From assembly GCA_051942165.1 (NCBI GenBank), contig JAVECS010000020.1, positions 1 to 43,680 on the forward strand: DNA of 43,680 nucleotides, in the 5' to 3' direction. Shown one piece after another: positions 1 to 34,653 of this stretch (the stretch's first letter is position 1; each line of letters starts with the position of its first letter). A model generated the notes under the pieces. The model ran no database searches. It was not told the DNA's origin and was given only the letters and a program-made list of their open reading frames with translations. A program made the translations under genes and the position numbers. Source of the stretch: Circinaria calcarea. Taxonomy: Eukaryota.

Positions 1-174
1 TGCCCGCTTCTTGGCCAATTGATCCGGTGTGAGGTTGGCCACGCCTCGAGAGCCCGAGGCCGACCCTCGCCGTCTCTTGTTCGACCGAGGCGCGCTGGAG
101 ACGGTGTCGGTGGGGGAGGGCGCCGCGGTACTGGGCGACAGCCTGCCATCGTCTTTATGCGCGTAGTCGGACAT
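1..174 (-). CDS. 5' end of a fungal bZIP transcription factor (DUF3425-type family), running off the window edge
   Basis: Manual translation from ATG at 174 gives MSDYAHKDDG...SNKRRRGSASGSRGVANLTPDQLAKKRA. This is the conserved lead-in to the basic region (…LAKKRANDREAQR…) of this family. Not in the ORF track. Confidence 0.8.
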   Translation of the reverse strand, partial: MSDYAHKDDGRLSPSTAAPSPTDTVSSAPRSNKRRRGSASGSRGVANLTPDQLAKKRA

Positions 175-734
175 GCCCAGCAGGACTAAAGTCCTGCCTA
201 CCTCATGAAGTTACTCCGTACCCTGTAATTGCGGTAATGCGTGGATGGAGTTATTCTCCGAGACGAGAGCTTATTACCTTAGTCGAGGGAGCACGCAGCA
301 CTGGTGACCGCAGAGAACCCTTGTTGAATTGGCACCCTGCCTTTCGATAGGTATACGATTATTGTCAGCTAACGACCCTTTCCCTCCCAATCCTTCTCGT
401 CAACTTTCCCGCTTACTTTGCTTCGATTCACCGAGTCATTTGGGGGGTTTTGTTTTTTTTTGTAATGCTCGGATGATGTTAGGTAGGCCCGGAATAACAG
501 TACTTCCAGCTAATCGATATCTCGTCTACAAGGCCACCCCGCATGGCTTTATATAGCTCTATTGTACATCCACAACGGAGCGATGTCATGCTAGTGGACC
601 TACTGTGGCCAATACGAATAAACAGTTTTTGCCAGCCTACCCTCCGTGCTTTACAGTATCAGGCCTAGCCTGTCGGTGCCGTACTCCCGAGCATAACAAG
701 TTTCTAGTAAAAAAGACCTAAACCCCCCAACTAT

Positions 735-893
735 GAAATACTGTATATGTGTAAAGTGTTGTGAAGGGGAATACTCGGGGGATCGCTGAGATATGGAGCG
801 AATAGCCGGCCCAATTAGCGCTGTTTCCCCGCTATCTTCTCCAGGCGCTCCAATCATAGCATTCGGTTATTTTTGGCTGGTTCGGCAATGCCG
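735..893 (+). repeat. Non-coding module B, copy 1
   Basis: ctcgggggatcgctgagatatggagcgaatagccggcccaattagcgctgtttccccgctatcttctcc...ttggctggttcggc aligns with the reverse complement of 30197-30350. Confidence 0.85.
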
Positions 894-1004
894 CCGAATT
901 GCGCTGCGAGGTTACCACGTGATTGCGACACTTGGCGCGGACTTTTTAAATTTTAACGTACCTTTCTGCCTTGTGTAAACGCGTTGCGGAGAGCAGTGTA
1001 CGGA

Positions 1005-1110
1005 CGGGGAATATCGCCAGAATTGGGCTCAAACCCCATTAGCGCTTTCAGAAAATCAGACGGGGGTATCACCAGGCCGGCCAAAAAGCAAGCGCTCATG
1101 GGATTTAGTT
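1005..1110. repeat. Non-coding module C, copy 1 (imperfect internal inverted repeat)
   Basis: ggggaatatcgccagaattgggctcaaaccccattagcgctt matches 34174-34215. ccaaaaagcaagcgctcatgggattta (1081-1107) matches the reverse complement of about 34198-34224. The two halves are partly complementary to each other. Confidence 0.75.
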
Positions 1111-1225
1111 TTGCAGATCGTACTAACAGCTGTTGCCCATCCGACCACAGTTGGTTTTATTTATAAACAACAAAATGGTGTCCAAGTAACCAACATCACA
1201 GCTTCATATAAACGTGGAATAGAAG

Positions 1226-3486
1226 ATGGAACAGCAGATTGCCAGACTTCAGCAAGAACTTGAGCAGGAGCGACGCCGACGCGAAGAAGCTGAAGAGTCT
1301 TCCAGGTTGACGACACTCCTAGAGTATCTCAAAATTTGTCACGAATCCTTCAATGCACCCACAGTCGTCACGGAGAAATCTTTAACAACTCAAGGCGACA
1401 CGACAGATCCAGACAATATCCACTCCGTATCATTCCCTGGGACGACTTTGTAACGGAACAAGATGAGATCTAGGGGCAGTTATTGACCCACTTAGAGTTT
1501 CTGTCGCTGAGGCAGTTCCCCTCCTCCAATAACGTGGAATACCTTCGCGAAACCCTCGGCCCGATCAGCTCAGAGGATGGCGTTGTACGCTACGGAAGCA
1601 GCATGATCGAAATCCCCGTACGGACGCTGATCGAAGCAGTGTATGAAGCTAAACTCCCGGATGCATTTAGTCTCCCAGGGAAGGTGGTTTTCCAAAGCCA
1701 CAGCAATTTGGCGCAGGGGAGTGGGAAGACAATTAAGGAAGGGATAGAGCAGATGTCAATCACTGGACCGAGTACCCCGATTCAGACGAGGGGAAAGACG
1801 AGGGAACAAGGGAGAGGGGCAGATAAGGGCACAGGGGTAGTCAAGCAGAGCGATTCCAAGAGCAGTGTTCGGAGAAGAGCTGGAATGTCGGATCGATTCT
1901 GCATACTTGAGGCAGACAGGGGACAAGCTACTATCATGATGACTGAATACAAGCCGCCTCACAAATTCTCATTGGACAATATAATCGCCGGACTCCAGTC
2001 GGGTGGGGAGATTTGCCCGGCCAAAGATATAATCGGAGAGGAGGGAACGAGCTTCGAATTCCAGTCGAAATGTCTGGTGGTTGCTGTGATCACGCAGCTT
2101 TTCTCGGACATGATCCGGAAGGGTTTGCGATGGGGCTATGTCTGCACCGTAGAAGCCAACATCTTCCTTCATATCCCCGACCATCCTTCGGATGTGTACT
2201 ACCACATTTCGATACCGAAGATTGACTACGAGAAAGCTAAGGAGAACAGTCTACACCGCGTGGCAGTTGCAGAGGTGTTTGCATTTGTCATGCGCGCAAT
2301 GAGGAACGAGGCACCCAACCAGTTATGGCGTGACGAGGCAGAAAAGCTACCAACATGGCCTAATGAACGTATCGATATTTTGAAAGATATCCCACCAACC
2401 CCCGGTGTGAGCGACGTCGAAGGCAGCGACTACAAGTCGAAGTACGTGGACGCCTATTGTAGCTCGCCGATCATTTTACGCCCTCGTAAGCAACTCCCGG
2501 CCTGCAAGGAGGCCGAAAATGATACATTTCATAGGGGCGATCGTGATGGTCACGATGATGGAGATGAGGAAGTCCCTAGCATGCCAAGACCCGCGCAGGG
2601 TAATAGTCAGGGCATGCGTGGGAGCCAAAATGCAGCCCCGAAGGGACGAGCAAGCAGTGAAACCACCAGTGGAACTGGCAAATACAATGACGGCGGTCGG
2701 AAGCGGATTGAGGCGATGTCGAGACCCAGGATCGAGGATCGGCCGTACTGCACACATAGCTGTCTGCTTGGGCTCGCCTTTGGCGGCGCGATGGACAAGC
2801 AGTGTCCTAATATTCAAGATCATCCTAAGCAGCACATTAACCAGGAAAATTTTCTCCGCCTCGTTCGTGACCAGCTTGCCACTGACCGTGGAAGCGATGC
2901 CGACTGCAAGCCATTGGGCATCAAAGGGGCACGTGGGGCGCTTTTTAAAGTCAGACTATCTTCACATGGATATATTGTAGCAGCGAAGGGAGTGGAGTCG
3001 CATAATCTTCGTTACCTTCAGCACGAGCACAATATTTATAAGAATCTTTGTTCTATTCAAGGGGAGCTCATTCCAGTCTGTCTTGGATCCGCAGCACTCA
3101 GACTCCCATGGTATTATGACATTGGTAGATATGTCAACATGCTCTTCCTTAGTTGGGCTGGGCGGCCACTCATGAACTACCTAGACCACAGCAATAAAGA
3201 ACTCTTCATCGACGCGACAACTCGTGCTCTGGAGTCTTTGCACAATCTCAAGGTGCTGCACAGAGATGCTGAACTAAGAAATATACTATTGGATGGGCAA
3301 AGCCGGCGTCTTATGTTTGTGGATTTTGAGCGAGCAGAACTCCTTGCTAGGCAGCCTTTGGGTAGCATCTCGCCGAATCGGAAGAGAAAACTGAGTGAGG
3401 GGAAGCAGACAGTAAAAAAAGATGATTTTAGTCTCGAAATACGCCGCGCTAGCGAGTGCATTTCCAGTTACGTAAGTTCAAAATAG
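1226..3486 (+). pseudogene. Spok (spore killer)-like nuclease-kinase protein with a frameshift and a stop near the 5' end
   Basis: N-terminal coiled coil (EQERRRREEAEE), TTLLEYLKICH...TTQGDTT, then after a frameshift near 1415 YPLRIIPWDDF, and TAG at 1471 (probably TGG). Open frame 1474-3486 carries the nuclease motif DRFC...EYKPPHK (1945), the Cys cluster YCTHSCLLGL...CPN (2746) and the kinase motifs VAAK, LHRDAELRNIL (D at 3265) and DFE. This is the Podospora SPOK domain order. Confidence 0.85.
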
Positions 3487-6400
3487 GCCTCATTGAGATG
3501 ATTTTGACTGCATAAGGACTCGCTTTATTTAACCTATTTTATTTGTAGTGATAGTAGAGTAATAAAATCCAGCTGCAGTGGTTTCGGTCTTAATAGCCGC
3601 TCCCATTACCGTCATATAGCAAACCCCTTCTCTATCCTGTTCGCGAGATGTCAAAAGTCCACAGCCTGCAAACTATGAGGCTTTGGTTGCTGTTGAGACT
3701 TTTTGCATGTTACCGGAATACTGGTTTTTGATAGCTTGATGCTTGGTAAAAACTGCTTCCTTCGAGAATCCTGTGTGACTCCTTTCTATTCTTCTAGCAA
3801 TGGCCTCTGCAGCCAGGCTCTTGCCCCTCTAATAAAAGCAACTGCGTTTTCTGCCGGAAATGCCAGCAGTTGATCAGGCAATCCGCGCTTTTTTCCCCAA
3901 AACGTCCACCCCTGTGCTGTAAGTCTTGGCAGACAAGGGGTTATATTCGCAGCCACTGACTTTCTAAACCAACCTCTACTCCTTCCCCTATGGATTTTGG
4001 ATGTCTCAACGCCAAATCAGAGGTTGTCGTGCCCTCCTCAATTTATCTTTTCTTGCTTGCGCTCTCTGTGATGATGCAATGAGTATTAAAGATTTTCTCT
4101 ATTGCGTCCGGCCTCTGTGGAAGGCCAAACTCGTCGTCCTCGTTGTACACGATATATGCGAATAAAGCCTGGTATGGGTTGACGTCGGGTGCATGTTGGA
4201 ATTTCAAGGAAAGCACTGGATGTTGAGCAGCATGTATGGTAGCATGCATGAATTGGTATGTGTGTGTGTAACTAAGTAAGCTACCTATGCTACGAAAAGT
4301 GCTTTTGTGGGTGTGTGGAGAGTGTAGAGCATGCATTACCGGTAGGTAACACATGACTCGGTAAGCCCTCTATGCCTTCCAACATATATAGAGTGTAGAT
4401 AGCTCGGGGTAAACGACCTAGTGTGCACAGACAAGGTTTATATACGCAACAAGATATACAGCCTTAACACCATCCATTCCGAGATGTCCAGACTCTATAC
4501 CATTATTTATGCATGAAGAAAGCGAGCCAGCCCGGGTGATATGCAAGCCAGCCGGAAGGCCGGGTTGCTTTTGAATTTTGAAAGCAACGGGCTAATCAGA
4601 ATGCAGGTAGCTGAAGCCAGTCAGAAAACTCGAACCTTGAATATGTAGCTGTTTTCCAGTTTTGGGTCCATCACAAGTATGTTAATTTAAAAGGAGTTAT
4701 CGTCTCTCAAATGCTTACTGACCTAATTGGTTCGATATTCTAAAGTTTCACATACGAGTACTCTTGGGAGAATATTTCTCAGTTGAAAAGGATTGCCGAA
4801 CTATTCTGTAAAATAATGCTCGAAAGGGAGAGTTCTTAAGACTAGAAATGATAACAAGATGGTTTCTTTTATATATCAGAGCTCCCCTGATAGCATAGCC
4901 TACCAGAAACATCAATGCGTGCGTAACTGGTTCAATCGTTCCCGTTACTCTAAACCGAAAAAACGGATATCAATATGATGATGGAGAATCCTCCCAGTTT
5001 ACAGCAGTGAGCTCGAAGGAGAATTGGGTATCTATACAGAGTCGGCAAAGGCCTACATCGTCCCTGGTACCCGAATGTCAAAAAGACTTACTAACCGCCG
5101 CAGAGAAAACACACTTCAGCGTGAACCATACGCCTCTCACTTCTGACGTTACAGAGTCCGGCTCTGGCTCTGGAACTTGCACATGGTGCAATATCGACTA
5201 GAATGTAGCTACAGGCATAGACATGGGTGATATAGATGCACATATTGCCACTCGGGACACCTCCAGCTATCGAGTAGTGAAGGATATATGGAGTATGGGC
5301 GGTCGCTGCCGCAAAACCAGTCAATCTGGATGTTGAATTTTCCTAGGTAGAGTAAGAGGCTCTGGTAGCGTTGGCCTTCTTCCTACGCGTTATTATCATT
5401 CTATAGGGACGGACTCGATTTCGCATACCTCTGGGTGTAGTAATGTCTTTCCAATTGAGTAGACCTTTTCTTGGTGGACTACGTGGTGAAGGAACGAAGC
5501 AAGGCGGAAATGAAGTAGAGTTGTTATAGGGACGAGCACCCAGGTTGTTGGGTTACTGAATTCGAAGTCGTGTGAACACCTCCTGACTCGTCAGACATGT
5601 TCGGGATCCATTTTATTGGAGCTATGCCAGTATTATTGGATCGATATATATTACCGTAACCTCATTAGACTATCAATCGCTGCTATCGAGAAAAGCTGGA
5701 GGCTCACTCCTGGCCGAAATCATGCCGGCGGAGCCAGGATTGGGCTGTTGTGTGTAAGGAGGAGGCTTCATGTAAGACATACAGGTCTGTCATAATCATG
5801 CATGTATTGCGGTATGTAGACATGCCAATGGCTTCTAGATATATTAAACCAATCACGGAAAAGGTAGTGTCTCAAACACAGATACTCGAAATCCTTACCT
5901 ACCTTATCCTATTTCCTCTCTGTCCGTATGTCGTCAGGAAATAACAGAGATCATGCCGTTGATCGACCGACTATCCGTTGATCGGTTGCATTCGATAGCT
6001 GAAGGTAATCTCGTGTCTATACTTCCCGCGGACGGAAGTAGCTGACGAGCCTTTACTCTTTGGTGTGTGTGCATAGCTCTTCTTACTTTGCTGAACGGCC
6101 TACACACCAGAATCATGCGTATTGTACTTAGCAAGACGCCCGACCACTCTTCCGGAGATGTTGAGGTTGTACACCTAATATTGACCTACGGAGCTATAAA
6201 TGTAGCTTCCATATCTCTTTCCAGTGGTCCCTTGATGACTATGATGCACTCCCACGTTTTGTCGAGGACCATTGAGATTACATGTGCCGTACCGTTTTCT
6301 GATTTGAAGAGTGGAATTTGCAGCTGTTTGACGTTGTATTCCTGCAATGCACTACGTTCAAGGATCATAGAATTTCTGCATGTTCATGTAACTAGGTAAG

Positions 6401-7797
6401 AGCAAGAGAGTTCGCTGAAAATACTGGTCGGCTTACGCCAGCCCCAACAACCCCAGCTGCCTATTTGTCTCAGAAGCTCAGACTGCTTTTGCTTCGCTGC
6501 CGGGTATTTTTCGGAATGGCTGTATGTAGTTAGTAGATGCTAAAAATAGCGTGCGCGCGAAGCGCAGTCTGAGGGAATTATCCAGCCTTTTTGGTGAGGG
6601 GAACAACATTTTTGTGTGAGAGGTGTTTTTTTCGAATTTATCAACAACTAATTAATAGAATTTAATATGGCTTATAATACTCGCTCTAAACGTCCTTTCG
6701 AATAAATTGTCAGAGCGGATTCTTCTATTATGCCTGCGTTAAGGCCCTAGAAACGCCGCCGTTCTGGTTCAGCTCTTTCCTCTCCTATTTTTACCCCCTA
6801 TATACAGAGGTTCTGTATGGAAAACAGAAGCTATATAAAGAATAGAGGTTCTAATAGTGGGTCTAAGATGTTCAATGGCAGTTTACTGCGAGCAGGGTCG
6901 TGTAATAGGTAGTTATAGGCGTTTATACTAAATTATGATCTTGGGTTATTAGCTTTTTGGTCAACAACCACTGGGTGGAATTAATTACTTCATGGGTTAT
7001 ATAATAGAGCAGAATATTTAGCACAGATTGTCAGAGCGAATTTAATTAAATTATGCGTGGTGGTTACGTGGTTGGTAAAAATCATGTTTTGGCTGCTCGG
7101 GAAGTTCGCGACACGTTTTAAGTAAATCCTTAACAAAGTTCGCGATTCCCAAAAAGGGCTATGTAATATCGGATCGAATAACCTTTTTTACGCGGAGCTA
7201 GTACGAAAGAAGTCTGAGGCCTCCGGAGTTTACGGAGGTGGCACTGAGGCAACGTGCCACCATCCAAACAGAAATCCCTGGAAATCCTCTGGATTTGGTC
7301 AAGCGCCATAGTCGTTTATGTGACAGGTCGGCATGCAATCGGTCAGTCTCTTTATCTTTTCTGCATGTACCCGGATTCCGAGGCATTTATCCCGGCGCAA
7401 AGTATGCAAAGAATGTGGGCTAGGAAATCGGCATCTTTTCCGAATAGCTCCTCTGAACCTGTGGCAGCGGGCGATGCGAGCTTCTCCCATGTGACGCTTG
7501 AAAAGCGTGGCTGCAGCCGTAAAACGCCGCGAAAAACGGTCAATACATCATGCTAGAATCGAGGTCACCAGCAAAGGCGTGGACAGGTCGTTTTGTTCTG
7601 GCCACGCAGAGCTACACATGGAGCTTGGGACCTCCGCTTCAGTCATCACAAGCACCCTCCCCTGCCGGGTAGGGAATAAAGATGCAGAATGTCGCAGGAA
7701 TGCAAGGACATTCCACGCTGCGTTGCCCTACTTTCCATTTCACTTTATCAATCTCATTCGGTCTCCCTCCAGGGCGTCCACACCGTTCGGGTCCTCA

Positions 7798-9883
7798 ATG
7801 CCCTTACTGACCATGGCCGAACAACATACCAAAGACCGCCCATCACACAGGTCTTGTATTCAAGACATTCCCCCCGAGCTCATGACGGAAATATTGACGT
7901 ACGCTCTTCTGCTTTTGCCCAACCCTACTATTAGCAGTCGATGCCGGATTAGCGGCGACCTTCACCGGTCAAGCTGCCTGCGGCTAAGAGCGGTATCTGG
8001 TACGTACTACGCCCTTTTGTTTTCCCTCAGAGAGACGTGTCCCCCCCGCGCGACTGATATGATTCAAGCAAAGTTTAGGAACATCATCCATGCAAACGTT
8101 ATGCCCAACCCAGAGAGCGTTGCTGCGATGATTTGTACCGACCTTGTGCCAGACATACGCCCGCTCCTACGTTTACTCAAATGCGTTGGAAAATCCGAGC
8201 CTCTCCGCTCGGAGCAGTTGTTGGCACTGCACAATGAAGCGACTGTGCACAACCACGATTTTATTATGCGTATACTTGTACAAGGTCCACCTATCGATCC
8301 ATCTCGGCGCCTTGATGTACCTGGAAGAACGATACATGCTAATTCCATTGGCACATTCAAGATACTACTTGACCATGGCTTTAACGATTACGCTGAATCC
8401 GACATAGACATATTTCGACTCTTACGGCAGCCTCTCATCGCGGTCATTATGTACGACCGTCTCGAAATGCTGGAGTTGCTCCTACACTCCAAAACCCCTA
8501 TTGAAGTGCAACTAGCTGCCGTAAGTCGGGGAAGGGTTATTAGTGAAAGCTGTGACTCGAATATATGGGTAGCGCAGGCACTGGCTTTGTCATGTGGAAA
8601 CGATACCCTCTCTCTCTTTTCCGCCCTATCGGCCAAATCACACTGGAAAGACGATGCTTCTCTTGAGTTGCGGACCGTCCTCCTCTTCCACGCGGTTGCA
8701 GGCCCTACAAGGTCATCTTTGGGCCGTGACTATAAGCCACATCATGTATGGTGGAATCCATGGATAAATAGCATTCTATTCTGGATAGAAGAACTCCGCA
8801 AGAATCGGCAAATCTTCCCAGCAGAAGTTGAAACAAATTCCCCAGAACCGACGCCGCGATGTTATCTCGTCCAAGAATTTCTGGAGACGAAGGCAGATCC
8901 TAGCTTGGCGGTCTATGGCGGGAAGACGGCGTTGTACCAGGCCGTTCTTCATCACGCTGGAGTGAAGATTTTGGAGTTGCTGTGCAAGCGATCAATCGAG
9001 TACTCCACTTCATCTCCTGCTCATGTCCCACCCCCCGCTAGGACCGCAGGGTACCCAGTGTTTGCTCGATCACGGTGCTCGGATTGACGTGGTCGATTAT
9101 GATGGGAATACCCCATTGCATGTAGCGATGCTACATTGCCACGAAAGCCCCTCGTTCTCCGCTTCACGAGCCCGCAACCTGCATCTGCTACTGAGCCACA
9201 GGCCCGTAATTCACTCTGTAATCAATCAACGCAACCGGTATGGCGAGACCGCCCTGTACATTGGCGTCGCCGGCTGCCACACTTGCTCCCGGTTCGATCA
9301 ACCACCCAGGACTCGCAGCTGTATGCAGGAGATGGTAAGAAAGCTGGTTGAACTCGGCGCTGATATAGATTCTCCTGACCATCAAGGCCGCACCCCGCTC
9401 CACAATGCGATAGCCGGAAAGTCCATGGCGATGGCGGACCTCCTGCTCACGCTCGGTGCAAATATTCACTCCCGTGATAAGGAAGGATACACATTACTAC
9501 ACCAAGCAGTCCTCTCTGGGGTTGTCAGTCTAGCGGAGCGTCTCTTATTCGGCGTGAACGTCAATTCCTACGACCGGGGAGGTTGGACTCCGGTACGCCA
9601 GGCGGCCTACTCTGGATCAGCAGAAATGACCGAACTTCTGCTATCGCATGGCGCTGATCCTGCAGTTCGGGACGAAAACTACTATTGCCTCGATTTTTGT
9701 ACCGCATGCTTCCCTAGGGTTCGAGATGTTTTACGCCGTTACCTACAAGAGAAGCCCATTCTGTCATCTCCGTCGATTGTTCGCCGTAGTAGTCAGAGAG
9801 GAATGCTTTTTGCCGGCATTCCTTTACAACTAGATGAGGATAGTGCTCCCCTACACCGTACTACCGGAGTGCTAGCGGATTAG
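7798..9883 (+). CDS. F-box-like plus ankyrin-repeat protein, apparent frameshift near 9030 (possible pseudogene)
   Basis: IQDIPPELMTEILTYAL...LRLRAVS is F-box-like. Probable intron 8000-8068 (GTACGT...ctgat...AAG). Ankyrin repeats GKTALYQAV, GNTPLHVA, GETALYIGV, GRTPLHNA, GYTLLHQA, GWTPVRQA. The frame changes in the C-run near 9030. Confidence 0.75.
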
Positions 9884-10249: not shown

Positions 10250-12700
10250 GAAGTAGCAGCGAGCAGAAGTACTCGGTATCTCAATGCCTCCACCTTCGGG
10301 TTAGGGTACACGGGTGGTACCCCACATGAGCTTCTGGGATGGAAGAGGTGCAGCCAGGGGGTGCGCCACGTACAATTGTAAGGCTGACAAACAGCGGATT
10401 ACGATAGACCGCCATCCTGCTCCACCTTCGCCGCAACCTTCGGCCTCGTTTCTCCATCCTGCTGTTCCTGCTCGCTAAAAGCAAGCTCCTTCTTCTTCGC
10501 GTCTTTCGCCGCTACCTTCAAAATCATAATATCATCATCAACCTGCTTTCCCCCCCGCCAATTGCCACAGCCGCAAGCCTTCTTCCCTAGACGGCTTCAA
10601 CACCCTATCACTACGCCTAGTACTAAGAAGGCTGTTGTGAATCCAGCTCCTTGTTGGGAAGAGCTTATATGCACTTTGATAGGGACAAAGAGGGTGGGCA
10701 TGGGAGTGGTGAAGTCGATTGGTCCAACGGGTAGAGTTCGTGATATCGAACGTGAAGGATTTGGACTAGGTCGTTGTAAGCTTGACCTGATAGGAAGCAT
10801 GCTGGGCCCAAGAAGAATAAATGCTCATTGCCCTGGGTGTCGCGGTGGATCGTGCCGTCACCTTCGACGATGTGATCACTCTTGACGATAGGATTAACGT
10901 CGTCCTCTACAACCTCTACCCTAGCATTAGTAGCCTCTTGATCCCGATTGCACACTACTTCCTCGTTCAGCTCCCTCAACTTGGCTTCGTGCTGCTCTTC
11001 TCTTTCTTCGTCCAACGTCTAGCCATCCTATCTTACTCCTTTTAATCTGCCCCGGCCTGGTCAAAGCTCATGACTTTCTATTTTGAATGATCAGATCCTT
11101 CCAGGTTAGTGGCGCGTCTAGAAATCTTGCAAATTCAACTTCTCTCTTCTTCTCCTTTGCTGGTAAAGGCTGACTACTTTGCTAATAACTTTATTAGGCT
11201 TTTAATTTGGTTCTGTGTTTGTAGCAGATAAGCAAGTTTGATGATATTGACCACGATACCTCGCAATATACTATAGACACATTTGCAGAATGATCCGGTC
11301 TTCCAAGTATCCAACATCAATTTCATCATCAGCTTCGACCAATGCCATCCTCCATAGGCTTCGTCAGCCAATTGACGAGCTCCCTCTTTCGTTTCCTACT
11401 CGGGAACTAATGCAGCAGCTGCTAGATCGCCCAGTTGCACCGTCGTAGCGTCACATGTAGCTGTTGCTTCCTGCGTCCCCAACCCCGCTCTTTTTGCTTC
11501 TGCTTTGCTAACCTTCTAGAAGTTTTAGGGTTCGTCGAGCTGGCAATCAAGCCAAACGCTTGGTTGGAAACTACAACACGTAGTATCAGCACCGCTTGTT
11601 GTACCATGTTGGGGCATCCATGCAATGAAAGATCTGAGTGAATGCTACCGGCGATTCCGAATATAATGGCAAAAGGCAACTGGGAAGGTCATGCCAGTGT
11701 TACTGACTTCACAGAAGTGGAAAGGAGTGAGCATCAAATGGTGAATGGGAACTACCCTCGGAAAAAAAAAGACTTAAGTTCGGTATCAACAAATTTTTGG
11801 TTTATTTGGCTCCCACCACTTAAGAATGATACCCGTCTGTATCATGAATGTACTTACATACCTCACCAGGGTCAATGGATAAAGAAATAGACGAAGATTC
11901 ATTCCAAGATCTAATCAAGCTCCCTGCTGCCGTCGTCCATCCATACCGTTTTGATCAGCGGCATAACTTAGAGGCCCATGGCTTTCACTCGAGCATGCGA
12001 TTCCGCTACCGCCATATCTTTGGCTATTCTTCTTCTTGGATCTGATAACTAGGTTGTAGAGTCCAGGGTTAAGTAAGTTAAGTCTAGGATTTTTATAAAT
12101 GGCCTGACGACCTGAGTAGGACAACTGACCTCTTGGCTTAGTGAAGTCGTCGCCAAATCTTTCCTCCCGGCCGAACTAGGTCCGCGTCTTACGGAATGGA
12201 TCCGGGCACGGGACAGAATTTAACGAGTTAACACCACTCAAGCGGCTCCCAAATTTTCCATCCCAGTCTTTTGGCGCCGATACCGCCTCAGCTTTTACCG
12301 GCCTTTTCCTCTCTCCTCTGTGCAAACACCCACTGCCATCCAGCCACGGCGTATCCATCGTTCTCCTTGCCTTATGTTTCACTTCCTCCGTTTATGTTGT
12401 CAACCGGTATCATCCAAGCAGTCACCAGGCAGTGTTTTCGAAATTCTTTCATCTCGAAAGTCGGCTAGTTAATTCATTCCCGAAGACATCACTGAACGTG
12501 CTGGTTGGCCAAGTCCACCTCAGATTTACGGCCCGACCTGGCTTTCTCGGCGATTTTGAAGAGGGTGGATTGGTCCAAGACAACGGAGGGGAGCATGGCA
12601 TTCTTAAAGGTATTGTTGAAGGGAATAATGGTACAGATATTGCCAAAATCGAGGAGAGCAAAGGGGGCGTATTGATTGGAGCTGCCATAGCCGAAGTTAG
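10250..12700 (-). mobile_element. Degenerate Mutator-like (MULE) transposase
   Basis: Fragments across several frames, in MULE order: NSVPCPDPF, LYNLVIR, SNTGMTFPVAFC, SESPVAFTQIFHCMD, RVVVSNQAFGLIAS, ILQMCL*YIA. Many stops and frameshifts. Boundaries approximate. Confidence 0.7.
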
Positions 12701-13444
12701 GATCGGTTACAACGAGTCTGCATTGCGGTAGGGGTTTCTCTGAAGGACGAAGCCTGGCTTTTCGGAGCTGTTTAGATTATATTGTAAAGCATACCTAGAG
12801 GAGAGTAGAATGTGGTATATTCTCGCTTTTCTCAAACCCTGATTCCGGCGTTCTTCCACCTTGAGATAATCAAAAATTCTATACTTTTCTTGCAAGGCCG
12901 CACTACTTCTAGAACACCACTCTCAGCATTGGTCCACGCGGCTATGAAGGGCTTGTGGTGTGATTATATTTCTTTGCGATACACATCCTCGATTCGATGT
13001 CAAAAGAGAAATTGTGTTCGCTCATTCTCTACCCTTCAACTTGCATACCAAGCTTACTGCGTGTTTCGGTTTCTACTTTCAGCCACCGCTTCGAGTAAAA
13101 CTCAAACGGCTGAGGTGTACGCTCCGGGAAGATTGATACGTCCCGCCAATCTCGAACTCGCCAGGCGGCAGTATCCTGAACAGACGGGCGGAATCCGTCA
13201 TGCCCAATCTTAAATCCTCTCGCAGATACTACAGCACATAGGTACGGCGTCTGCTTTTTTTTTGGCGATATCATTCCTGGGCCACTCTCATCTCACACAT
13301 TAGACGCTGCTGTGCACTCGAATTTCACATGAAATAAAATATTGGTGCTGGCCACCGTGATAGCTGGAAAACGCGCAGCTGCGTACGACTTGGACATGGA
13401 GATATATTCTTGAAGGCCGGTGGCATTGATGATGTGATCAGGGG

Positions 13445-16310: not shown

Positions 16311-17084
16311 TTATGATGGGATCCATATGCGAAAGATGTTTGCGGAATGGTATCCAACGAGGTGTCCTAGGTGAGCACGTTCGGCTAACCTCTGTTTGCG
16401 TGGTATCTGGTTAATAAGCGCGTATGCCTTACATCCAAATGCTTTGAGATATCCAAGGTAGGGCACTTGTGTAGTGGCCATCTCGTAAGGAGTTTTCCAC
16501 TTCTGTTTCTTAATTGGTGTTTTGTTGGCGATATACGCGGCGGTGCATATGCATTCCGTCCACATGTATTGCGGTATGTTGACGCTGATGCGCATGGTGC
16601 GTGCTTTGGAGGCTAGCATGCCTCCTTTGCGTTCTGCATGACCGTTCTGGTCAGATGTGTGTGAAGGAAACGTCTCGAAGGTAATGCCGCGTGCTGACAG
16701 TTCGTTTTGGAAGGCATAATCGAGAGTTTTCTCTCCGTCTGTGCGTATGAAAACGACATCTTGACCATATCGTTTCTTGATGAGTGCTAAATCGTCAAGT
16801 AGTATTTGTGGTGCATCGCTTTTTGCTCGATGTGTATGAACGATGTTGAAATCTGTGTATTCGCATGCTAGGTGCGAAGCCCATTGGTGGCCGTTGTATG
16901 CGATACTGAAGTGCATAAGGTCGAATGATATGCGTTGGAATGGCCTCGTGGGAGGTTCCGATTTATCTTGTAAACGTGAGACGATTCGATGTATCGTCGA
17001 AAGAGCACATGATTCGCATTCGTTCGTCTTTGGTATGGTGGATTCTTTATCCATGATTTTCACCCCCCCGGCTGAAGACTCCAA
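16311..17084 (-). CDS. Copia integrase core (part of disrupted pol)
   Basis: CESC zinc finger, DDE motifs (FD, TDG, AER) and the YHSANIFRIW SH3-like region. Confidence 0.9.
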   Translation of the reverse strand: MESSAGGVKIMDKESTIPKTNECESCALSTIHRIVSRLQDKSEPPTRPFQRISFDLMHFSIAYNGHQWASHLACEYTDFNIVHTHRAKSDAPQILLDDLALIKKRYGQDVVFIRTDGEKTLDYAFQNELSARGITFETFPSHTSDQNGHAERKGGMLASKARTMRISVNIPQYMWTECICTAAYIANKTPIKKQKWKTPYEMATTQVPYLGYLKAFGCKAYALINQIPRKQRLAERAHLGHLVGYHSANIFRIWIPS

Positions 17085-17500
17085 CGCTTGGTGGATTCAG
17101 CTGATGCGTGACCGAGTATATTATGCCACTCATGCGCAGTCGCAGTCTTGACGGCATGGTGTGCTTGTGTTGTTGTGGGCGACGGGTTCGACTTCATGTT
17201 GTCCTCTAATAGGTAAAGTCCTCCCCAGCTCTTCACGTATGCAATGCATTTGCCATTCAGAACAAGCCATTTGCGTTGTAGTTACCAGTCCACCCCTTTA
17301 GCCTCTGCCTTGTGCAAGGAAACTAGGTTAGCAGGGTAGTCAGGAACGTATGCAACGTCCTGAAGGCGTATGGTGTCTGCTCCGCTGTCTGATGTGATGT
17401 TGATACTGAGTTCTCCATAACATTCGATTGGCATTCTGATACCTGATGTTATTGAGTCATTTGGGTGTGCTGGTCTAACTAACCTTTGTAAGACGGCTTC

Positions 17501-18694
17501 TCATGCTCTTGTTGCATATGTGTGAGTCAGATCCTGGATCGAGTATTCATGAATCTTTGAACGGTGAGTCGTTCGTGTTCGTATGGTAGGAGCTGACTGC
17601 TGTGAAAGCGGCGGTCTCTCTCGGTTTGGTAGCGGCGCTGCCTTCTGTATTTGATGTGTTGTTGTTTGCTTTCTGTTTGGCAATCTTATTCGATTTTTCG
17701 ATTTTTCGATTGCAGCATCGACTCTCTGTTTCATTCTTTGATCTTTAAGCCTGTCGTTCACCTTGATCTGGATGTCCCTGTTTGACGTCCATCCGCTTGG
17801 TCTGCGTGCCTTTGAGTTGAGATATGGGCAGTCACTCCACCAGTGTACGCCTCCGCATAGGCATTCTCGTGGTTGCGGTGATGGCTTTCGATTTATATTG
17901 CGTCCTTGGTAACTAGGACTCTCTGGCTGCTGATCGATTGATTGAGTTTGGAACGCTGAGTGATGCTTCGTCTTATCCTTCGATGATGTTGATGCCACGG
18001 CCTCGTACTGCTGTCGTTGCTTGAACTTGGATATGACTTCGAAGAGATCTGTAAGTAATCCATCCTCTAGCTTTTCCATTTGTATGTCCGAGAAGCTCTT
18101 ATCCTTCTTCGCAATGGCGATGAGAAAGTCAAGTATGGCTTCTTGTTCGTTTGATACCTCTGAAAGTTGAAGGGTTTTTGCTTGTGATATGGTGAGGACA
18201 TAGTCGTCTAACCATTTGTCGATGTTTTCGTTGTTCGAAGGTCCTTCTCTCATCGTAAGAAGCTTCTTCTTCAACTCGTATGTTCTGGTTTTGTCACTGA
18301 GTGACAGTCGTTGTCTGAGAGCTCTGAGTATGCTCCATGGGTGTGATTCAGTCTCTTGTAGGTACACGATGTTGCTGGCAGCAATAGTGTCCTGTATGTA
18401 TGTGGTGAGATCGGCGAATGCCTTCCTCTCTTTCTCGTAATCATCGAGTTTGAATTTGTAGATGTCCTTGTCGAGTTTGAAATCTTCAAGAGCAGCTTTT
18501 TGCTCGTCCCTTGGAAGCTGTTTGATTGCGTCGACATCTGGTCTTTCCGGTTTCTGTATGGAGTCTGGTTTGGAGGTGAGTGATGGGTTTACCTTCTCCC
18601 AAATTCCTAATTGGTCTGCCTTGATGCGTATGATTGAGATCCATGATGCCCAATCAGCTGGTTTAGCCAGGATGAGTTTCTTGGCGCTATCCAT
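17501..18694 (-). CDS. Copia Gag
   Basis: N-terminal IL...DW..W motif and a CCHC-type knuckle. Lies between the PBS and the protease. Confidence 0.85.
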   Translation of the reverse strand: MDSAKKLILAKPADWASWISIIRIKADQLGIWEKVNPSLTSKPDSIQKPERPDVDAIKQLPRDEQKAALEDFKLDKDIYKFKLDDYEKERKAFADLTTYIQDTIAASNIVYLQETESHPWSILRALRQRLSLSDKTRTYELKKKLLTMREGPSNNENIDKWLDDYVLTISQAKTLQLSEVSNEQEAILDFLIAIAKKDKSFSDIQMEKLEDGLLTDLFEVISKFKQRQQYEAVASTSSKDKTKHHSAFQTQSIDQQPESPSYQGRNINRKPSPQPRECLCGGVHWWSDCPYLNSKARRPSGWTSNRDIQIKVNDRLKDQRMKQRVDAAIEKSKNRIRLPNRKQTTTHQIQKAAPLPNRERPPLSQQSAPTIRTRTTHRSKIHEYSIQDLTHTYATRA

Positions 18695-18831
18695 GGCGTT
18701 TTAAGTATGTGTTGCCTCGAGTCAGCGAGTACTGGATTGTATTGATTCTGGTGATCGACTTTGTGTCGGATTGATTGGGTGAGTACTTGAATAAACGAGT
18801 CCTCTTTTTGTGTTGGTAATCGCGCGTTGTA

Positions 18832-19999: not shown

Positions 20000-21430
20000 C
20001 TAGTATAGTAGACTTTCCGAGTGTTCGCAAAGCGAGCTGCTAAGCAATGCAAGATCCGGCCCGCTCTCGAAATCACTGTTAACACAGGGTCCGCTATCCA
20101 CCCGATCAATACATCCAGTGATATCTGTAAAGGAATAAGGACTTGTACCGGAATATAACAACTGGCCGGTCGAGCTCGAAGTGATCGAGTAATTAGGGCC
20201 GCGGCTGCTGCTCAGGCCGTATAGATCCATCCCCATAACCGGGTCATGTTCGAACTCGAAAAGTACTGGCTTATCCCCCTCAATAATCTTTGGGTAGAAT
20301 TTCTGATTCTCCAACGCTTTCCTCAGTTTTGCGTGTCTTGTAGCCTTTCCGCCTTTGACGCCAGCTCTCTGGCGCTGAATAAGTGCTGGTGTGGTTTTAC
20401 CTAATTTCTTCCCGGGGACGATGATGCGATATCTTGTCGTACTTTCAACACCATTCGCGAGGGCAGAGGGTTCAAGTACCCAGATGAAACCTTTTTTGGA
20501 TTCGTCACCGGGAGGAGACTGGTTAACCTTTTTGAATGCCTAAACTTCATTGTCAATAAAGGGCCTTGAATACACCAAAAAAAGACTTACACCATTCATA
20601 GAGAGGTTATGCCTAATACTGTTCTGCCAGCCCTTTAATTCGGGATCCTTAGCCTTATCAGTGTTTTTCTCGAACCATTCGTATATATCTTTCAACACCA
20701 TCCGATGATCTTTGGCACTTTTCAGCGCTTGATAGATGAGCTGCGAATATGGCTCGGAATTGACACCTCCGTCAGCATCACTCTCCTCGACATGAAGGCC
20801 GGCGGGATTGCTAATGACTTCATAACTGTCTGTAGGCTCGGGGGTAATGGCCGGACGCATTCTTGACATTTCAGCAAGAGTAGAGCGTCCGAACTGAAAT
20901 CGCTGGTGGGGTGCCATCGACGAGGGGGAGGGCGCCAGATGCTTTGAAGGGTCAATATAGTATGCCGAGGGCGGATGAGCTTGCAATATTGATCCCACGC
21001 CAGTCTCCACCGCCGTATATGTTTCTTGACCAAAGGTATGAGGACACGTCATCGCCAAGTAGTGATCCCTTTGGTCATGCGGCACTCCATCGTCCAAGTG
21101 AAAAGCTCCGAGTTCTCTCCCGTTCGAGTCTTGCCCGTAAGCGCTTACATTGTAGATCTCATAGAGGTCCTGCGTGCATAATGATTCGTACAGCCCGTTG
21201 TTTGGGACTCCTAGACCTTGTTGTCCATTCCAATTCGGCGTGGTTGATGATGAGTTTGGAGAAGTGGCTCCATTGTGGATAGAAGGAAATGTCGAGAGTG
21301 AGATACAATCCTCTTCATGAACCATGTTGCTGTTGGCAAAGTGGCGATCTTGGATATCAGGTAAGATGTTTGGTGGCCTTTTTCTCCGTGGTCTTTGAAA
21401 ATCATCAACTGAGATAATTCCCTTGAGCAC
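20000..21430 (-). CDS. Forkhead-box transcription factor, apparently intact
   Basis: EPYSQLIYQAL...LKDIYEWF...GWQNSIRHNLSMNG, intron 20590-20540 (GTAAGT...TTTAG), then AFKKV...KKGFIWVL...GVESTTRYR in frame with ORF 20000-20314. True start or upstream exons uncertain. Confidence 0.9.
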
Positions 21431-23246
21431 AAAGAAGATAACGGATGGTGTTGTGTGAAAGCATTATTGTCTCTTCCTATTAAATGGACAATAAAGCGGA
21501 AATTTTAGCATAGTACAAGAATAGACACTGTCCGGTCCAGTAACTGCTATGCAGTAAATAATGATGTGTCCAAAGCATCTTTCGGAATACATAATATGAG
21601 ACGACAATCTTGATGAGCATATTGGCCCTGTGGAATAGAGCACCGGTCTGACAGATCGACCGGTTTCCGTCATGCAATCAGCCATTGCAGATGTCCAGGT
21701 ACATATGCAGAATACTGGTCTGCCCTGATAATTATTGCAGCAAACAACACCTCGAGATTGAAACTTGGAAACATTGTTTGAGATCTTCATAATGTTTTAG
21801 CACGCCAGTGATTGCCTGCATATAAGCTGCGGGTATCCACGTGCTAGCAAAGGAGTGGATGTGGATGGGGTACCATATGTGATATTTACATGGTACAAGG
21901 TTCCTCGTGGCATAAGGTTTGCAGCTTGCGATTGGCAAGAAGGAATGCTCCAACCAGTCATTAGTTTCCCGATCAGCGCCAGGGTCGAATCCGTCTGGAC
22001 TTTTGCCCTACAATCAGTGCACATGGTAGAGCCGGAAGTCGCCATAGCTGAGGTAGATGCTGTGCTGGAAAGCGGCTTCAATTCCGGTTGGGCACATCTC
22101 TCTTGGATCAGTCACCGTGTTGCGAGTGTCCCTCCAGCAATTGATGTGTCGGCTCGGACTCGGCGTGCCATCTCCATCTCCGACTAAAGCCGTTCTTAGT
22201 GACTGTCGATGGCAAGTTTCACCAGTGGGAGGAAAACAATCTGGTACAAACTCCGCAGAGATCGCCGGTGGAAAGTTGACTTTGCTAGGGTGGTTGGAAA
22301 CGCAGTTAGTTTCGGTATTACCCATGCGCTAACTAGAGCTTAGCCATCATGGATCATTCAGCCCGATAAAAGCACCATCTGTTCTCCTACTAACGGCAAC
22401 ACCATCAAATGGAACTTCGTCACATAAGCCTATCTCCATCTACCTCTACCTTTCCATCCCAAGACTGACTACGATTGTCATACAGCATTAACCTCTCCGC
22501 TTTTAACATCGTTCTCGTCAATAACAACAAAGTCAATCCCTCCGTCTCTAAAACCGTTGGCTCCAAAGTCAAGACCTCTGACAACTTCTATGAAATTGAT
22601 AGCTTGAAGGGGAGTCTCCGGCTAGGGCTACCAGATTAACCTTATATCCATCGATCTGAACCTTGCTGTACTCGCCTAGTTGGTTAGTTCGCCCTTTTGA
22701 TAAGGCCAAGTCCTCCAGCTCGTCCCTATCTTCTGCTTCCACTGCCTCTACCGCCTCCACAACTTCAGGTTAGTCTTGATTCTGGTCGGCGTGATTATAA
22801 TTAAAGATTTTGCAAACACGCGTCATCGTGTACAATTTGCTGACTGCACAACTATAGCCTCTGCCACTGCCTCCAAGTCGTCCATGCTCCTTGCCTCAGC
22901 ATCCGCTGCTTCGACTTCTATTCAACTTGTTGGCAGGTTTTTGAGGGGACGGCCCACGGATCTCGGGGGGAGGCTGGGGTTCTTGGGTTTTCTTTTGTTT
23001 TTTCCTCTAACTCACACCCGGTGTCAGTGTACCTTGGTAGGGTTGCAATTGCCTTGCGACTAAGCGGTCCTCTACTCTTTCTTTGGCCTTGAGTTCTGTT
23101 GGCGTCAGGGTGGCTAGTGGGATGCGCTGGGAGGTCTCAGTCTGGCTTAACTCGTGAAGGAATTGGTCGGAGTTGGGTAGGGTAGATCGGGCTATCGCTG
23201 AGCCGAAGGCGGAAGCGTCGGTAGCGGAGGACTCACAGTATAGTTC

Positions 23247-25719: not shown

Positions 25720-27935
25720 GTTATTGATATCTACGAGCCAATTAGGAACGATGAGCTGTTGAATTCCTATAACCCTTTGTGTACGATGGCTTAGGGGGCT
25801 AATACGGATATGACACCTCCTACTAGTGCTGATGCAGTGCTCCGATACATCGCCAAATACTGCAGCAAGGCTGAAACGAAGTCGGCGATGTATGTTCCAT
25901 GCTGAAAAATGTGATGAGCCACGCTTCCGCCACTTATTCGCTCATATCGATTACCACTAAGCTTATGAATAGCCTCATTAGCGAATGGGATTGGTCAGCC
26001 CAAGAGATATGCCATTTGACGCTTGGCTTGCCCTTGCAAGATGGCTTTCGAACGACTATAGCATTGGACGCTCGGCTGCCAAACGAGCAAAGTGTTGGCT
26101 TCGAGGTCGAGAATGAAGAGGTTGTTACCCGGAAATCACCCATAGAACGCTATATGGGCCGGAATATACAGAAATGGCCACTGCTAAGTCTACGGGATAT
26201 GCTGCGGCACTTTGACTCGTCAAAATGAAACGCCGGCCACGAGCTGCGCCTCGAGTCGTCAATCTTTTCCCGCTCTACGATTCAAACCCTACCGGTGAGC
26301 AATACGAAGATTACTGCCGGCTAAAGCTTATGCTTCACCATCCTTTTACTAAGATTGAAGACCTACGCAGAGAATTCCGAGGTCCCAACAACCGTGTTAC
26401 AGATGTTGAGAGCTATTGGGAAGCTTATACGTTATGCAGAAACCATTGTACTATACACGGCCCTGACCCGCTGGACCCTATAGCCGAAAATAACCCTGAG
26501 GAGACGAATTCGAGGACCAATCGGATGTAGGAGAGATTCCTATGGAACGCCAGGCATGGGGGAGTTCGCCGGCAGTAGGGCGCCGAATGACGGTACAAGA
26601 ATAGAAGATCCGGACGATCTAGGGGGGCGTGATATGGACAGGGCTTTCAATTGGAATGCCAATGCCGCGGAGTACGAACAGTATGCAGCGCCGGAAGGGT
26701 TCCTGGCAACGGTCAAAATCGAGCAACTGCCAGATGAAGATATTCGAGTATTACTGTCGCCAGATATACTCCAGGCAGAGCAGCGGAAGACCTACGATGC
26801 TGTGATGAAGCAGTATGAAGATGAACTAGCTAAGCCACTGAACCGGCCACCTCCGCTGGCTCTGAATGGCGATGGGGTGGCCGGAACAGGTAAATCTTAT
26901 CTCATTGATCTACTTTCTCGACATTTATTGCGTAGGGCTATGGAAGCAGGCCTCCAGTCCCTGTAAAACGTTGTGCTCCTACCGGCGTTCCTGCATACAA
27001 TATTAAGGGTTGTATATTGCATTCTCCCTTGAAACTGCCTATTAGAAAGGAGTTTGACAAGCTGCAAGATAAACCCCTTGCAATTTTACAAGCCAGCCTA
27101 AAGCTTTGTTGATTTCTGATCATGGATGAAAAATCTATGATAAGTTTAACACAGTTGGCGTGGATTGATAAGCGGCTCCGGCAGATTTTCTCTGACTATC
27201 AAGATAAACTTTTTAAAGGTTTGAATATTATTCTATTCGGTGATTTCGCTCAATTGCCTCCTGTTTGTGAAACTTCGCTATACGAAGATAGGCCGCTCCT
27301 TCCAAGGCCTCTTCATTATGTTGGACGCCAAGCATATCATGCCTTTACGAAGTCTATTTCCCTTAAAAAGATAATGAGACAGCAGGGTAAAGACCCTACT
27401 AACGTACAATTTCGTCAAATGCTCCAACAGCTTCGAGATGGGCCCATCAGCGAGGAGAACTGGCGTCTACTACTTACGCAAGTTCAAAGATTCCTTGATG
27501 CAGAAGAGGTGGAATTATTCCGGGACTTTTTTCGGGTCTTTCCAACTAGGGCAGCTGTTATGGAACACAACACCGCTTGTCTCAAAGAGAGTGAGCGTTC
27601 CGTAATGGTCATCCGAGCAGAGCATACCCGGCCCGCAGCGAAATCAGCAACCACGGAAGAGGCCGAAAACCTACAGGCTGAAATTTAGGTAACGGTCGGG
27701 GCTAAGATCATGCTAGCACAGAACCTCTGGGTGGGAAGGGGCTTGGTAAACGGCTCCACCGGCGTGATTCATGATATCGTCTGGCATGAAGGATGCTTTT
27801 AACACCGTTCCGAGGATGCTACTAATCAAGTTCAAGGGGTATACAGGACCAGGGCTATTCGAACACGATGGAGTGCCGTCGTCTAGAAAGACTCTCCCGA
27901 TTGGTTTAGCATACGCGGTCACGGTGCATAAATGA
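25720..27935 (+). mobile_element. Helitron RepHel remnant (end of the HUH Rep domain plus PIF1 helicase)
   Basis: RNDELLNSYNP...*GANTD...LRYIAKYCSKAE, SAQEICH, KLMLHHPF, Walker [44 protein letters not shown]. Multiple stops and frameshifts; truncated at both ends. Confidence 0.88.
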
Positions 27936-34282: not shown

Positions 34283-34653
34283 CGGTACTAGCACGTCTTA
34301 CATAGAACGTAATATAGCTATTGTTGCTCGAGGCTCAATACCTCCGAATAGTATTGAACACGGTAATTGGGGTCTATAAGCATGCTATTCTAAAGAACGA
34401 GGAACAGCCCGCTTATATACATGGTTTGCTCGGGTGGCTCTCACGGCCAAGCTCTCTGAGCATCCTGAGCCAAACCTCATTGCTCAGATGGCTCTTGCTG
34501 CCAAGACCTCTGAGCACCCTGAGCGCCGTATGCTCAGGTGGTTCTGATGCCAAGCTCTCTGAGCATTCTGAGCATCAGCGGTGTAGTTCCCCCGCCTCCG
34601 GTATTACATGTCAGTACTACCATATGGCGTAGCGCCATAGCATATACCAAAGC
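34283..34653. repeat. Non-coding module A, copy 2, with three tandem palindromic units
   Basis: Units at about 34423, 34481 and 34531 with consensus GCTCAGGTGGCTC-N16/17-GAGCAYYCTGAGC. Flanks are homologous to 30495-30790. Confidence 0.85.

What the first reader, a model, noticed from the sequence alone, without database searches (positions are those of the whole stretch)
1226..3486. Spok-like meiotic-drive toxin-antidote gene broken only at its 5' end
Seen: coiled coil, D...EYK nuclease motif, CxxxC...C cluster and HRD/DFE kinase in one gene. A frameshift (about 1415) and a TAG (1471) are followed by about 670 uninterrupted codons, with an in-frame ATG at 1603. Established: Podospora SPOK proteins have this order; the nuclease is needed for killing and the kinase domain for resistance. 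Inference: this is a spore-killer homolog in another lineage. It is either recently inactivated or kept as an N-terminally shortened, possibly resistance-only, allele.
Basis: partly seen in the sequence, partly recalled or inferred. Interest (0 to 1): 0.8.

Follow-up and report, generated by a model that had tools for sequence, protein, structure and literature searches.

The report
Recently broken fungal spore-killer gene
This is a copy of a well-known family of fungal 'spore-killer' selfish genes, in a genome labelled as a lichen fungus, that two nearby mutations near its start have most likely switched off recently, an ordinary fate in this family.

Summary
Observation confirmed. A Spok-family gene (1226-3486) has a 7-nt frameshift near 1410 and a TAG at 1471, then 670 open codons. 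The database gene model of this locus carries Pfam SPOK2_N. The read-through aligns at 42% to a published FuSpok homolog, and its N-half folds like type I/IIG restriction nucleases. It was not aligned to Podospora SPOK1-4 (not obtainable). Most likely a recent null allele (~0.7).

Against a resistance-only product from ATG 1603: that Met is not conserved (1 of 107), sits inside the first helix of the nuclease core, and follows four out-of-frame ATGs. Codons 30-82 upstream of it show no extra decay. The database's 47-nt 'intron' bridging both breaks removes conserved coding sequence, and 361 of 400 simulated lesion pairs can be bridged that way.

For it: both breaks are 5' (chance 0.03-0.05), and domain 1 and the nuclease diverge faster than the kinase. 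But the nuclease excess is shared with a sister locus, and intact homologs show similar ratios. No reads or RNA were available. Broken family members are common (7 of 19 loci). Resistance-only remnants were already proposed in 2019.

The parts
1226..1453 (+). 5' piece: start codon, short coiled coil and start of domain 1; after the frameshift the frame runs on to a TAA (75 aa)
   Evidence: 47% identity over 38 aa to FuSpok homolog P0488; N-terminus matches close homologs
1408..1416 (+). frameshift: 7 nt missing relative to relatives; not in a homopolymer run
   Evidence: DNA alignment with L024; protein alignment; sequence
1427..1473 (+). 47-nt GT..AG stretch that the database gene model P0004 treats as an intron; it covers conserved coding sequence and is probably a false intron
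1471..1473 (+). premature TAG, in a column where 106 of 107 homologs have Trp
1474..3486 (+). 670-codon open frame: rest of domain 1, nuclease, linker, Cys cluster, kinase and native stop
1573..1647 (+). predicted long helix (model residues 55-79) where the structural match to small PD-(D/E)XK nucleases begins; ATG 1603 lies inside it
1603..1605 (+). first in-frame ATG after the breaks (627 aa); not conserved (Met in 1 of 107 homologs); overlapped by the stop of an out-of-frame 9-codon ORF from 1577
1513..2391 (+). PD-(D/E)XK nuclease fold; catalytic D at 1891 and EYK at 1945-1953 intact; QxxxY motif reads QxxxD (2107-2109), as in the 4 closest full-length relatives
2749..2835 (+). cysteine cluster C-x3-C-x13-C-x5-H-x3-H (SPOK3 has x7 before the last His; FuSpok homolog P0488 has x3)
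2926..3354 (+). kinase-like (resistance) domain; HRD at 3259-3267 and DFE at 3322-3330 intact
   Evidence: Pfam Pkinase E 1.2e-6, below its cut-off; Kdo above its cut-off; fold of intact relative P0005

Best explanation
A recently inactivated (null) allele of a Spok-family single-gene toxin-antidote. Known from other members (shown in the cited papers): the nuclease half damages DNA in cells that lack the gene, and the Cys-cluster/kinase half of the same protein protects cells that carry it. Inferred here: the ancestor of this copy was kept under purifying selection, with faster change in domain 1 and the nuclease than in the kinase. It then lost 7 nt near codon 62 and gained a stop about 20 codons later, so translation from 1226 yields only a 75-aa peptide. 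The 670 codons are still open because little time has passed. A 5' first break is also what toxin-antidote logic favours: a break between nuclease and kinase would leave an unchecked toxin, as Spok3(1-490) is, whereas a 5' break is harmless (inference).
For: The breaks interrupt sequence that is coding in the family: Trp in 106 of 107 homologs at the stop column, and P, I, P, W, F and Q at 94-100% in the stretch between the breaks. The other indels against L024 are net in-frame (3, 2+1 and 6 nt). Pairwise dN/dS against L018 (82% nt, dS 0.42) is 0.36 overall. In simulation, 670 codons stay open with P 0.13-0.53 at 1% neutral divergence and 0.01-0.34 at 2%, depending on the assumed indel rate, so a short neutral period fits. 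Codons 30-82 show no excess change against sisters (3-6 vs 4-6 in 9 triplets; branch ratio to kinase 0.89). 7 of 19 metagenome loci of the family are broken. Pseudogenes and false introns are reported for Spoks (PMC6660238; PMC12693581). The neighbourhood has other decayed genes and transposon pieces. No close cognate paralog was found in the assembly; the two others are about 35% identical.
Against: Both breaks fall in the first 126 of 753 codons (P 0.028 if uniform, region chosen after the fact) and within 20 codons of each other (P about 0.05). Domain 1 after the breaks and the nuclease carry more deviations at conserved columns than any of 107 homologs (10/32, 7/20, 31/106), while the Cys/kinase part is average (8/108, median 9). 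The bootstrap ratios to the kinase exceed 1 (domain 1 1.5-3.4, nuclease 1.2-2.8; 40 replicates). L025 has a break only in its 3' half, against the idea that 5' breaks must come first. The breaks could not be checked in reads.
Confidence: 0.7

Rival explanations
1. Resistance-only remnant: a product from ATG 1603 (or 1753 or 1885) lacks the coiled coil and part of the nuclease core, cannot kill, but its intact Cys/kinase half still protects against a cognate killer allele in the population.
For: Kinase dN/dS 0.23 (0.14-0.36) vs nuclease 0.40 (0.26-0.62) against L018. Only 2 private deviations in the kinase against 13 in domain 1 downstream of the frameshift. QxxxY reads QxxxD. ATG 1603 cuts the first helix of the nuclease core, so the product should not kill (inference). 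A K240A mutant and a natural Spok2 allele resist without killing. Both breaks are 5'.
Against: Met at 1603 in only 1 of 107 homologs. Four out-of-frame ATGs lie upstream (1226, 1353, 1463, and 1577 whose stop overlaps 1603). Codons 30-82 have not decayed, so this state cannot be old. The fast stretch spans both sides of 1603. The nuclease excess is shared by sister L018 (12 vs 13 private changes), and intact P0034, P0038 and P0006 have similar domain-1/kinase ratios (3.15, 3.25, 2.02 vs 2.19), so it predates the breaks. Vogan et al. suggest the coiled coil matters for resistance. No cognate killer was found in this assembly.
Confidence: 0.12
2. New-intron rescue: the 47-nt GT..AG (or 53-nt, to the CAG at 1479) is spliced, restoring a 737-aa protein (database model P0004) that lacks about 18 residues of domain 1.
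For: The model exists in the database and bridges both breaks with canonical ends; the stop codon itself supplies the AG. It would explain the clustering of the breaks and the conserved exon 1.
Against: 361 of 400 simulated lesion pairs of the same geometry can be bridged by some GT..AG of 40-100 nt. The removed stretch is the best-conserved segment against L024 (72% nt vs 54-67% elsewhere), and the matching residues of intact P0005 (82-102) are modelled at pLDDT 97-96. Spok coding regions lack introns and false introns are common in their annotation. Donor GTATCA and branch TGTAAC are poor matches to the fungal consensus (consensus recalled; my genome-specific test was underpowered).
Confidence: 0.07
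3. Assembly artefact: the gene is intact in the organism and one or both breaks are errors of this fragmented metagenome-assembled genome.
For: 5512 contigs for 31.5 Mb. False frameshifts in Spok genes from sequencing errors are documented. A single assembly, with no reads seen.
Against: The documented errors are single bases in G runs of nanopore data. Here one break is a 7-nt loss outside a homopolymer and the other a substitution 60 nt away. No second near-identical copy that could have been collapsed was found.
Confidence: 0.08
4. The ancestor was never a driver: this sub-family is a nuclease-kinase of another function, and its loss is unrelated to drive.
For: Four of six Fusarium homologs had no effect in yeast, including FOXG_14774, whose primers read the same catalytic-loop type (LHH.AEPRN) as this sub-family. 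The closest branch lost the QxxxY tyrosine.
Against: The spok on Fol4287 chromosome 12 (FOXG_14774) stabilises its chromosome in a K240-dependent way in F. oxysporum (bioRxiv 10.64898/2026.10.04.756499). Patchy, multi-copy, often broken occurrence fits a selfish gene.
Confidence: 0.03

Closest known systems
Podospora SPOK1-4 (Vogan et al. 2019, PMC6660238; Urquhart and Gardiner, PMC9972908)
   Same: Order coiled coil, domain 1, PD-(D/E)XK nuclease, C-x3-C-x13-C-x5-H, kinase; similar length. The third-ranked structural hit of the N-half model is V. vulnificus HsdR (3h1t, Z 8.5), the protein that was Vogan's best HHpred hit.
   Different: Broken; QxxxD instead of QxxxY; last His at x3 rather than x7; a different sub-family. 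No direct alignment was possible. The paper's table gives FOXG_14774 26% identity to SPOK3.
Fusarium FuSpok homologs (Sandell et al. 2025, PMC12693581), e.g. KAJ4191929.1 = P0488, and FOXG_14774 on Starship Arwing
   Same: 42% identity over 682 columns to P0488, which the paper's Supplementary Table 2 lists; same catalytic-loop type as FOXG_14774 (primers).
   Different: Host labelled as a lichen-forming Lecanoromycete. No Starship captain on this contig. FOXG_14774 itself was not in hand for alignment. P0488 has not been tested for killing.
SpokPsi1 and the strain-A Spok2 allele of P. anserina
   Same: Decayed or killing-dead Spok alleles keeping the resistance part; proposed as resistance genes on the way to pseudogenes.
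   Different: SpokPsi1 lacks its 5' end and has many stops and a transposon. This copy has only two breaks and keeps all its domains as DNA.
Nearest database relatives: Coniosporium tulheliwenetii H2199_008749 (P0005, 61%) and metagenome locus L018 (65% aa, 82% nt)
   Same: Same branch; share QxxxD and other nuclease changes.
   Different: P0005 is intact and from a Dothideomycete. L018 is partial and has several breaks of its own.

Membership tests
Spok homolog family (sequence and architecture) | Pfam SPOK2_N (PF27653) domain | tested here: met
   Precomputed on the gene model P0004 and on 119 of 120 listed hits; name. The local Pfam scan did not return it.
Spok homolog family (sequence and architecture) | N-terminal coiled coil | tested here: met
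   Short one at 1226-1300; helix 2-42 in the model of intact P0005
Spok homolog family (sequence and architecture) | PD-(D/E)XK nuclease with catalytic D and ExK | tested here: met
   D..EYK present; model matches BpuSI (Z 10.9, rmsd 3.8, 151 aligned) and HsdR (Z 8.5, rmsd 3.5, 129 aligned)
Spok homolog family (sequence and architecture) | Cys cluster C-x3-C-x13-C-x5-H followed by a kinase with catalytic Asp | tested here: met
   final His spacing x3 as in P0488, not x7 as in SPOK3
Spok homolog family (sequence and architecture) | Full-length similarity above 30% to an accepted Spok homolog | tested here: met
   42% to P0488, a listed FuSpok though not one of the assayed genes
Spok homolog family (sequence and architecture) | Direct full-length alignment to Podospora SPOK1-4 | not testable with these tools
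   No stored protein begins like SPOK3 or the assayed FuSpoks; the supplement alignment rows were cut
Active Spok meiotic driver | One uninterrupted, intron-less reading frame | tested here: not met
   frameshift and stop in the assembly; reads not seen
Active Spok meiotic driver | QxxxY motif of the nuclease | tested here: not met
   QxxxD; Tyr in 95 of 107 homologs, Asp in the 4 closest
Active Spok meiotic driver | Killing and self-resistance activity; transmission bias in crosses | not testable with these tools
   needs experiments
Starship-borne Spok | DUF3435 captain and element boundaries around the gene | tested here: inconclusive
   21 captain matches on 13 other contigs, none on C20; the contig ends 1.2 kb upstream of the gene

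The most novel reading that the evidence does not exclude
A Spok caught in the act of becoming a resistance gene in a lichen fungus. The killing half (domain 1 and nuclease, QxxxY lost) had been relaxing for a long time while the kinase stayed constrained. The two 5' breaks then removed the full-length toxin, while a downstream start or a newly made 47-nt intron still yields a protective protein, showing that the antidote needs neither the coiled coil nor an intact nuclease core.
Probability: 0.17. Interest if true: 0.62.

Novelty: new member of a known kind. Interest (0 to 1): 0.24.

Why it matters
As a null allele it matters little: one more decayed copy of a widespread selfish-gene family. 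Three side results have some use. First, the structure search puts the first helix and strand of the nuclease core inside what the 2019 paper calls 'domain 1 of unknown function'. Second, a branch of the family (this gene, P0005-P0008, L018) lost the QxxxY tyrosine; intact members could test whether killing weakens before drivers die. Third, a genome labelled as a lichen fungus holds three divergent Spok homologs, two with open frames; my two searches found no paper devoted to Spoks in lichens (listings; one paper opened, where 'spok' was only a place name). If the resistance-only reading were true, it would be a natural test of the minimal antidote and of the driver-to-suppressor life cycle proposed for Spoks.

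Tried and rejected
Read-level and expression check: no run was listed; this is no evidence either way.

Genome-specific splice-signal test on 600 kb of the 15 longest contigs: underpowered (207 anchors, about 40 excess donors), inconclusive.

RIP as the cause: no signature in the gene (TpA/ApT 0.64; (CpA+TpG)/(ApC+GpT) 1.31). The single G-to-A change is in a RIP-like context but is uninformative alone.

'5' breaks come first' rule on other broken loci: too few full-length cases, and one counter-example, L025.

Getting SPOK1-4 or FOXG_14774 sequences: three homolog searches, one representative search and the supplements did not give them. P0452 and P0480 are annotated 'putative spok spore killer' in Podospora but do not begin like SPOK3.

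Sequence and full-length fold searches of the PDB listed only kinases; no solved Spok structure was among the rows shown.

First metagenome scan with the single protein: 0 of 176 candidate stretches confirmed.

Rfam: no match in 1-6000. Earlier findings of the scan: none.

The Fisher contrast for residues 84-177 against the kinase (p 1.7e-5) was set aside: the region was chosen after seeing the data, relatedness is ignored, and two homologs rank higher. L023's stop was not counted as a break, because it aligns to an N-terminal extension of the query. No complex prediction was run.

Full report
1. Observation. The window is a whole contig (G000:C20) of a 31.5-Mb, 5512-contig assembly. A database protein identical to the long ORF, on a contig of the same length, is labelled 'MAG: hypothetical protein Q9187_000326 [Circinaria calcarea]', a Lecanoromycete (that it is lichen-forming is my own knowledge). 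ATG 1226 starts a coiled coil whose frame closes after 75 aa. Homology resumes in another frame at about 1411, meets TAG 1471-1473, and then runs 670 codons to the native stop at 3484-3486. Alignment to the DNA of relative L024 shows 7 nt missing at about 1410; the other gaps are 3, 2+1 and 6 nt. The stop lies in a column with Trp in 106 of 107 full-length homologs (107 of the 119 hits other than P0004, kept by length 690-920 aa).

2. Family. The gene model and 119 of 120 listed hits carry PF27653, which is SPOK2_N. The read-through aligns at 42% over 682 columns to P0488 (KAJ4191929.1), one of four stored proteins whose accessions appear in the FuSpok table of PMC12693581. A model of the window's N-half (mean pLDDT 78.6) matches restriction nucleases: BpuSI Z 10.9, V. 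vulnificus HsdR Z 8.5, and many smaller PD-(D/E)XK enzymes; a mitoribosomal protein ranks second at Z 8.9, rmsd 5.2. The model of intact P0005 (pLDDT 82.2) matches kinases, with Rio2 at Z 13.2. The primers for FOXG_14774 read LHH.AEPRN around the catalytic Asp, the loop type of this sub-family. That gene had no effect in yeast but stabilises its chromosome through K240-dependent killing in F. oxysporum. I could not align to SPOK1-4 or FOXG_14774 directly. Differences from SPOK3: QxxxD for QxxxY (shared with P0005-P0008; Tyr in 95 of 107) and x3 for x7 before the last His.

3. Is the long ORF still used? For this: deviations at columns at least 70% conserved are 10/32 and 7/20 in domain 1 after the frameshift and 31/106 in the nuclease, each higher than in all 107 homologs, but only 8/108 in the Cys/kinase part (median 9). 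dN/dS against L018 is 0.40 in the nuclease and 0.23 in the kinase, with overlapping intervals. Both breaks are 5' (P 0.028-0.05, post hoc).

Against: (a) L018 shows the same nuclease excess (13 vs 12 private changes; kinase 5 vs 2). Among 20 of 33 tips with long enough kinase branches, intact P0038, P0034 and P0006 have domain-1/kinase ratios of 3.25, 3.15 and 2.02 against 2.19 here. The asymmetry is therefore older than the breaks and not peculiar to them. Domain 1 has been proposed to set specificity. (b) Codons 30-82, which a start at 1603 would free from selection, show no excess change, while the fast stretch 84-177 (excess in 6 of 9 triplets at p<0.05) lies on both sides of 1603. (c) The Met at 1603 is found in 1 of 107 homologs and follows out-of-frame ATGs at 1226, 1353, 1463 and 1577, the last overlapping it. 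(d) It falls at residue 65 of the modelled piece, inside helix 55-79, where the matches to minimal nucleases such as Hjc begin (residues 51-56). Such a product should not kill; whether it would fold and protect is untested. (e) 670 open codons are compatible with 1-2% neutral divergence, small beside dS 0.42 to the nearest relative, so dN/dS against relatives cannot see the period after the breaks.

4. The database intron. P0004 (737 aa) skips 1427-1473 and so bridges both breaks. The skipped residues include P, I, P, W, F, Q and W columns conserved at 94-100%, and the segment is the least diverged from L024. 361 of 400 simulated pairs of breaks can be bridged in this way, and false introns are a known fault in Spok annotation. 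My test of splice signals on 600 kb of the genome was underpowered, so splicing is disfavoured, not excluded.

5. Context. Two other homologs in the assembly have open frames and are about 35% identical (L002, 739 aa; L003, at least 743 aa). No near-identical copy was found. The contig holds an ankyrin gene in two frames, a retrotransposon piece, a PIF1 piece, an open FunK1-type kinase frame and a NACHT-WD40 gene in several frames (some frame changes may be introns). Starship captains occur on 13 other contigs, not here. Among 19 metagenome loci of the family, 7 are broken (some may be assembly errors). No RIP signature was found.

6. Mechanism and verdict. Shown: family membership by sequence and fold, the two breaks in the assembly, past purifying selection, and faster change in the killing half. 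Taken from the literature: nuclease-dependent killing by DNA damage and kinase-dependent resistance in SPOKs. Inferred: the ancestor of this copy worked the same way and was switched off recently, by breaks at the end where loss is harmless to the carrier. Odds: null allele 0.70, resistance-only from a downstream start 0.12, assembly error 0.08, intron rescue 0.07, never a driver 0.03. Resistance-only remnants were already proposed for SpokPsi1, and a natural killing-dead Spok2 allele is known, so even the bolder reading is a variant of a known idea.

7. Papers seen. PMC6660238: abstract, sections 17, 18, 19, 22 and 24, passages, and the list of supplements. PMC12693581: abstract, methods part 1 of 2, results parts 1-2 of 3, supplement parts 1, 29 and 30 and a search; alignment rows were cut and may bear on clade placement. 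bioRxiv 10.64898/2026.10.04.756499: abstract, sections 7, 8 and 11; supplements not seen. PMC9972908 and PMC13535494: passages. Others: search listings only. Grognet et al. 2014 is cited only through these papers.

Noticed in passing
L003 (G000:C1478:3822-6833), ORF 784-3012: This open-frame Spok paralog is about 75-85% identical to many proteins from Leotiomycete genera (names as listed; class from my own knowledge) but only about 42% to the C39 paralog: horizontal transfer or a foreign contig in the metagenome-assembled genome.
   Followed up: no
L002 (G000:C39), 826-3045: Intact 739-aa Spok-family paralog with DQFC, EYK, QTFHYM, the Cys cluster and the catalytic Asp; a better candidate for an active driver than the window gene.
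   Followed up: partly
window 975-1110: Two partial copies, head to head, of a roughly 100-bp dispersed repeat found on six other contigs (80-91% identity), 120 bp upstream of the start codon. Its consensus holds a GGTTCAAATCCC word resembling a tRNA B-box (recalled); no Rfam match.
   Followed up: partly
window 1573-1695: The structure search places the first helix and strand of the nuclease core inside the published 'domain 1 of unknown function'.
   Followed up: partly
window 36471-39243 (+): NACHT-associated (NPHP3_N), winged-helix and WD40 matches spread over several frames: probably a decayed HET-E-like NLR gene.
   Followed up: no
window 31364-33436 (-) and 34620-35036 (-): A 690-codon open FunK1-type fungal kinase frame (E 3e-139) and a weak fragment of a second one.
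   Followed up: no
window 7495-9883 (+), 16311-18700 (-), 27113-27688 (+), 20000-21463 (-), 40641-41102 (-), 12492-12776 (-): Ankyrin-repeat gene in two frames, retrotransposon remnant, PIF1 helicase piece, forkhead gene (its in-frame stop probably lies in an intron), Myb-like piece and an aconitase C-terminal fragment.
   Followed up: no
L024 2571-3782: Close relative (59% to P0005) with 8 stops, five at Gln codons and one at an Arg codon of P0005: a C-to-T decay pattern unlike the window gene.
   Followed up: partly
L025 2629-4895: Homolog with an open N-terminal half and a frameshift only in the Cys/kinase half; if real it should be an unchecked toxin unless its nuclease is dead.
   Followed up: no
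L037-L096 (G000 C1-C15, first 40 kb each): The longest contigs of the assembly show little intron signal (207 branch-acceptor anchors in 600 kb), so they may be gene-poor accessory DNA.
   Followed up: no
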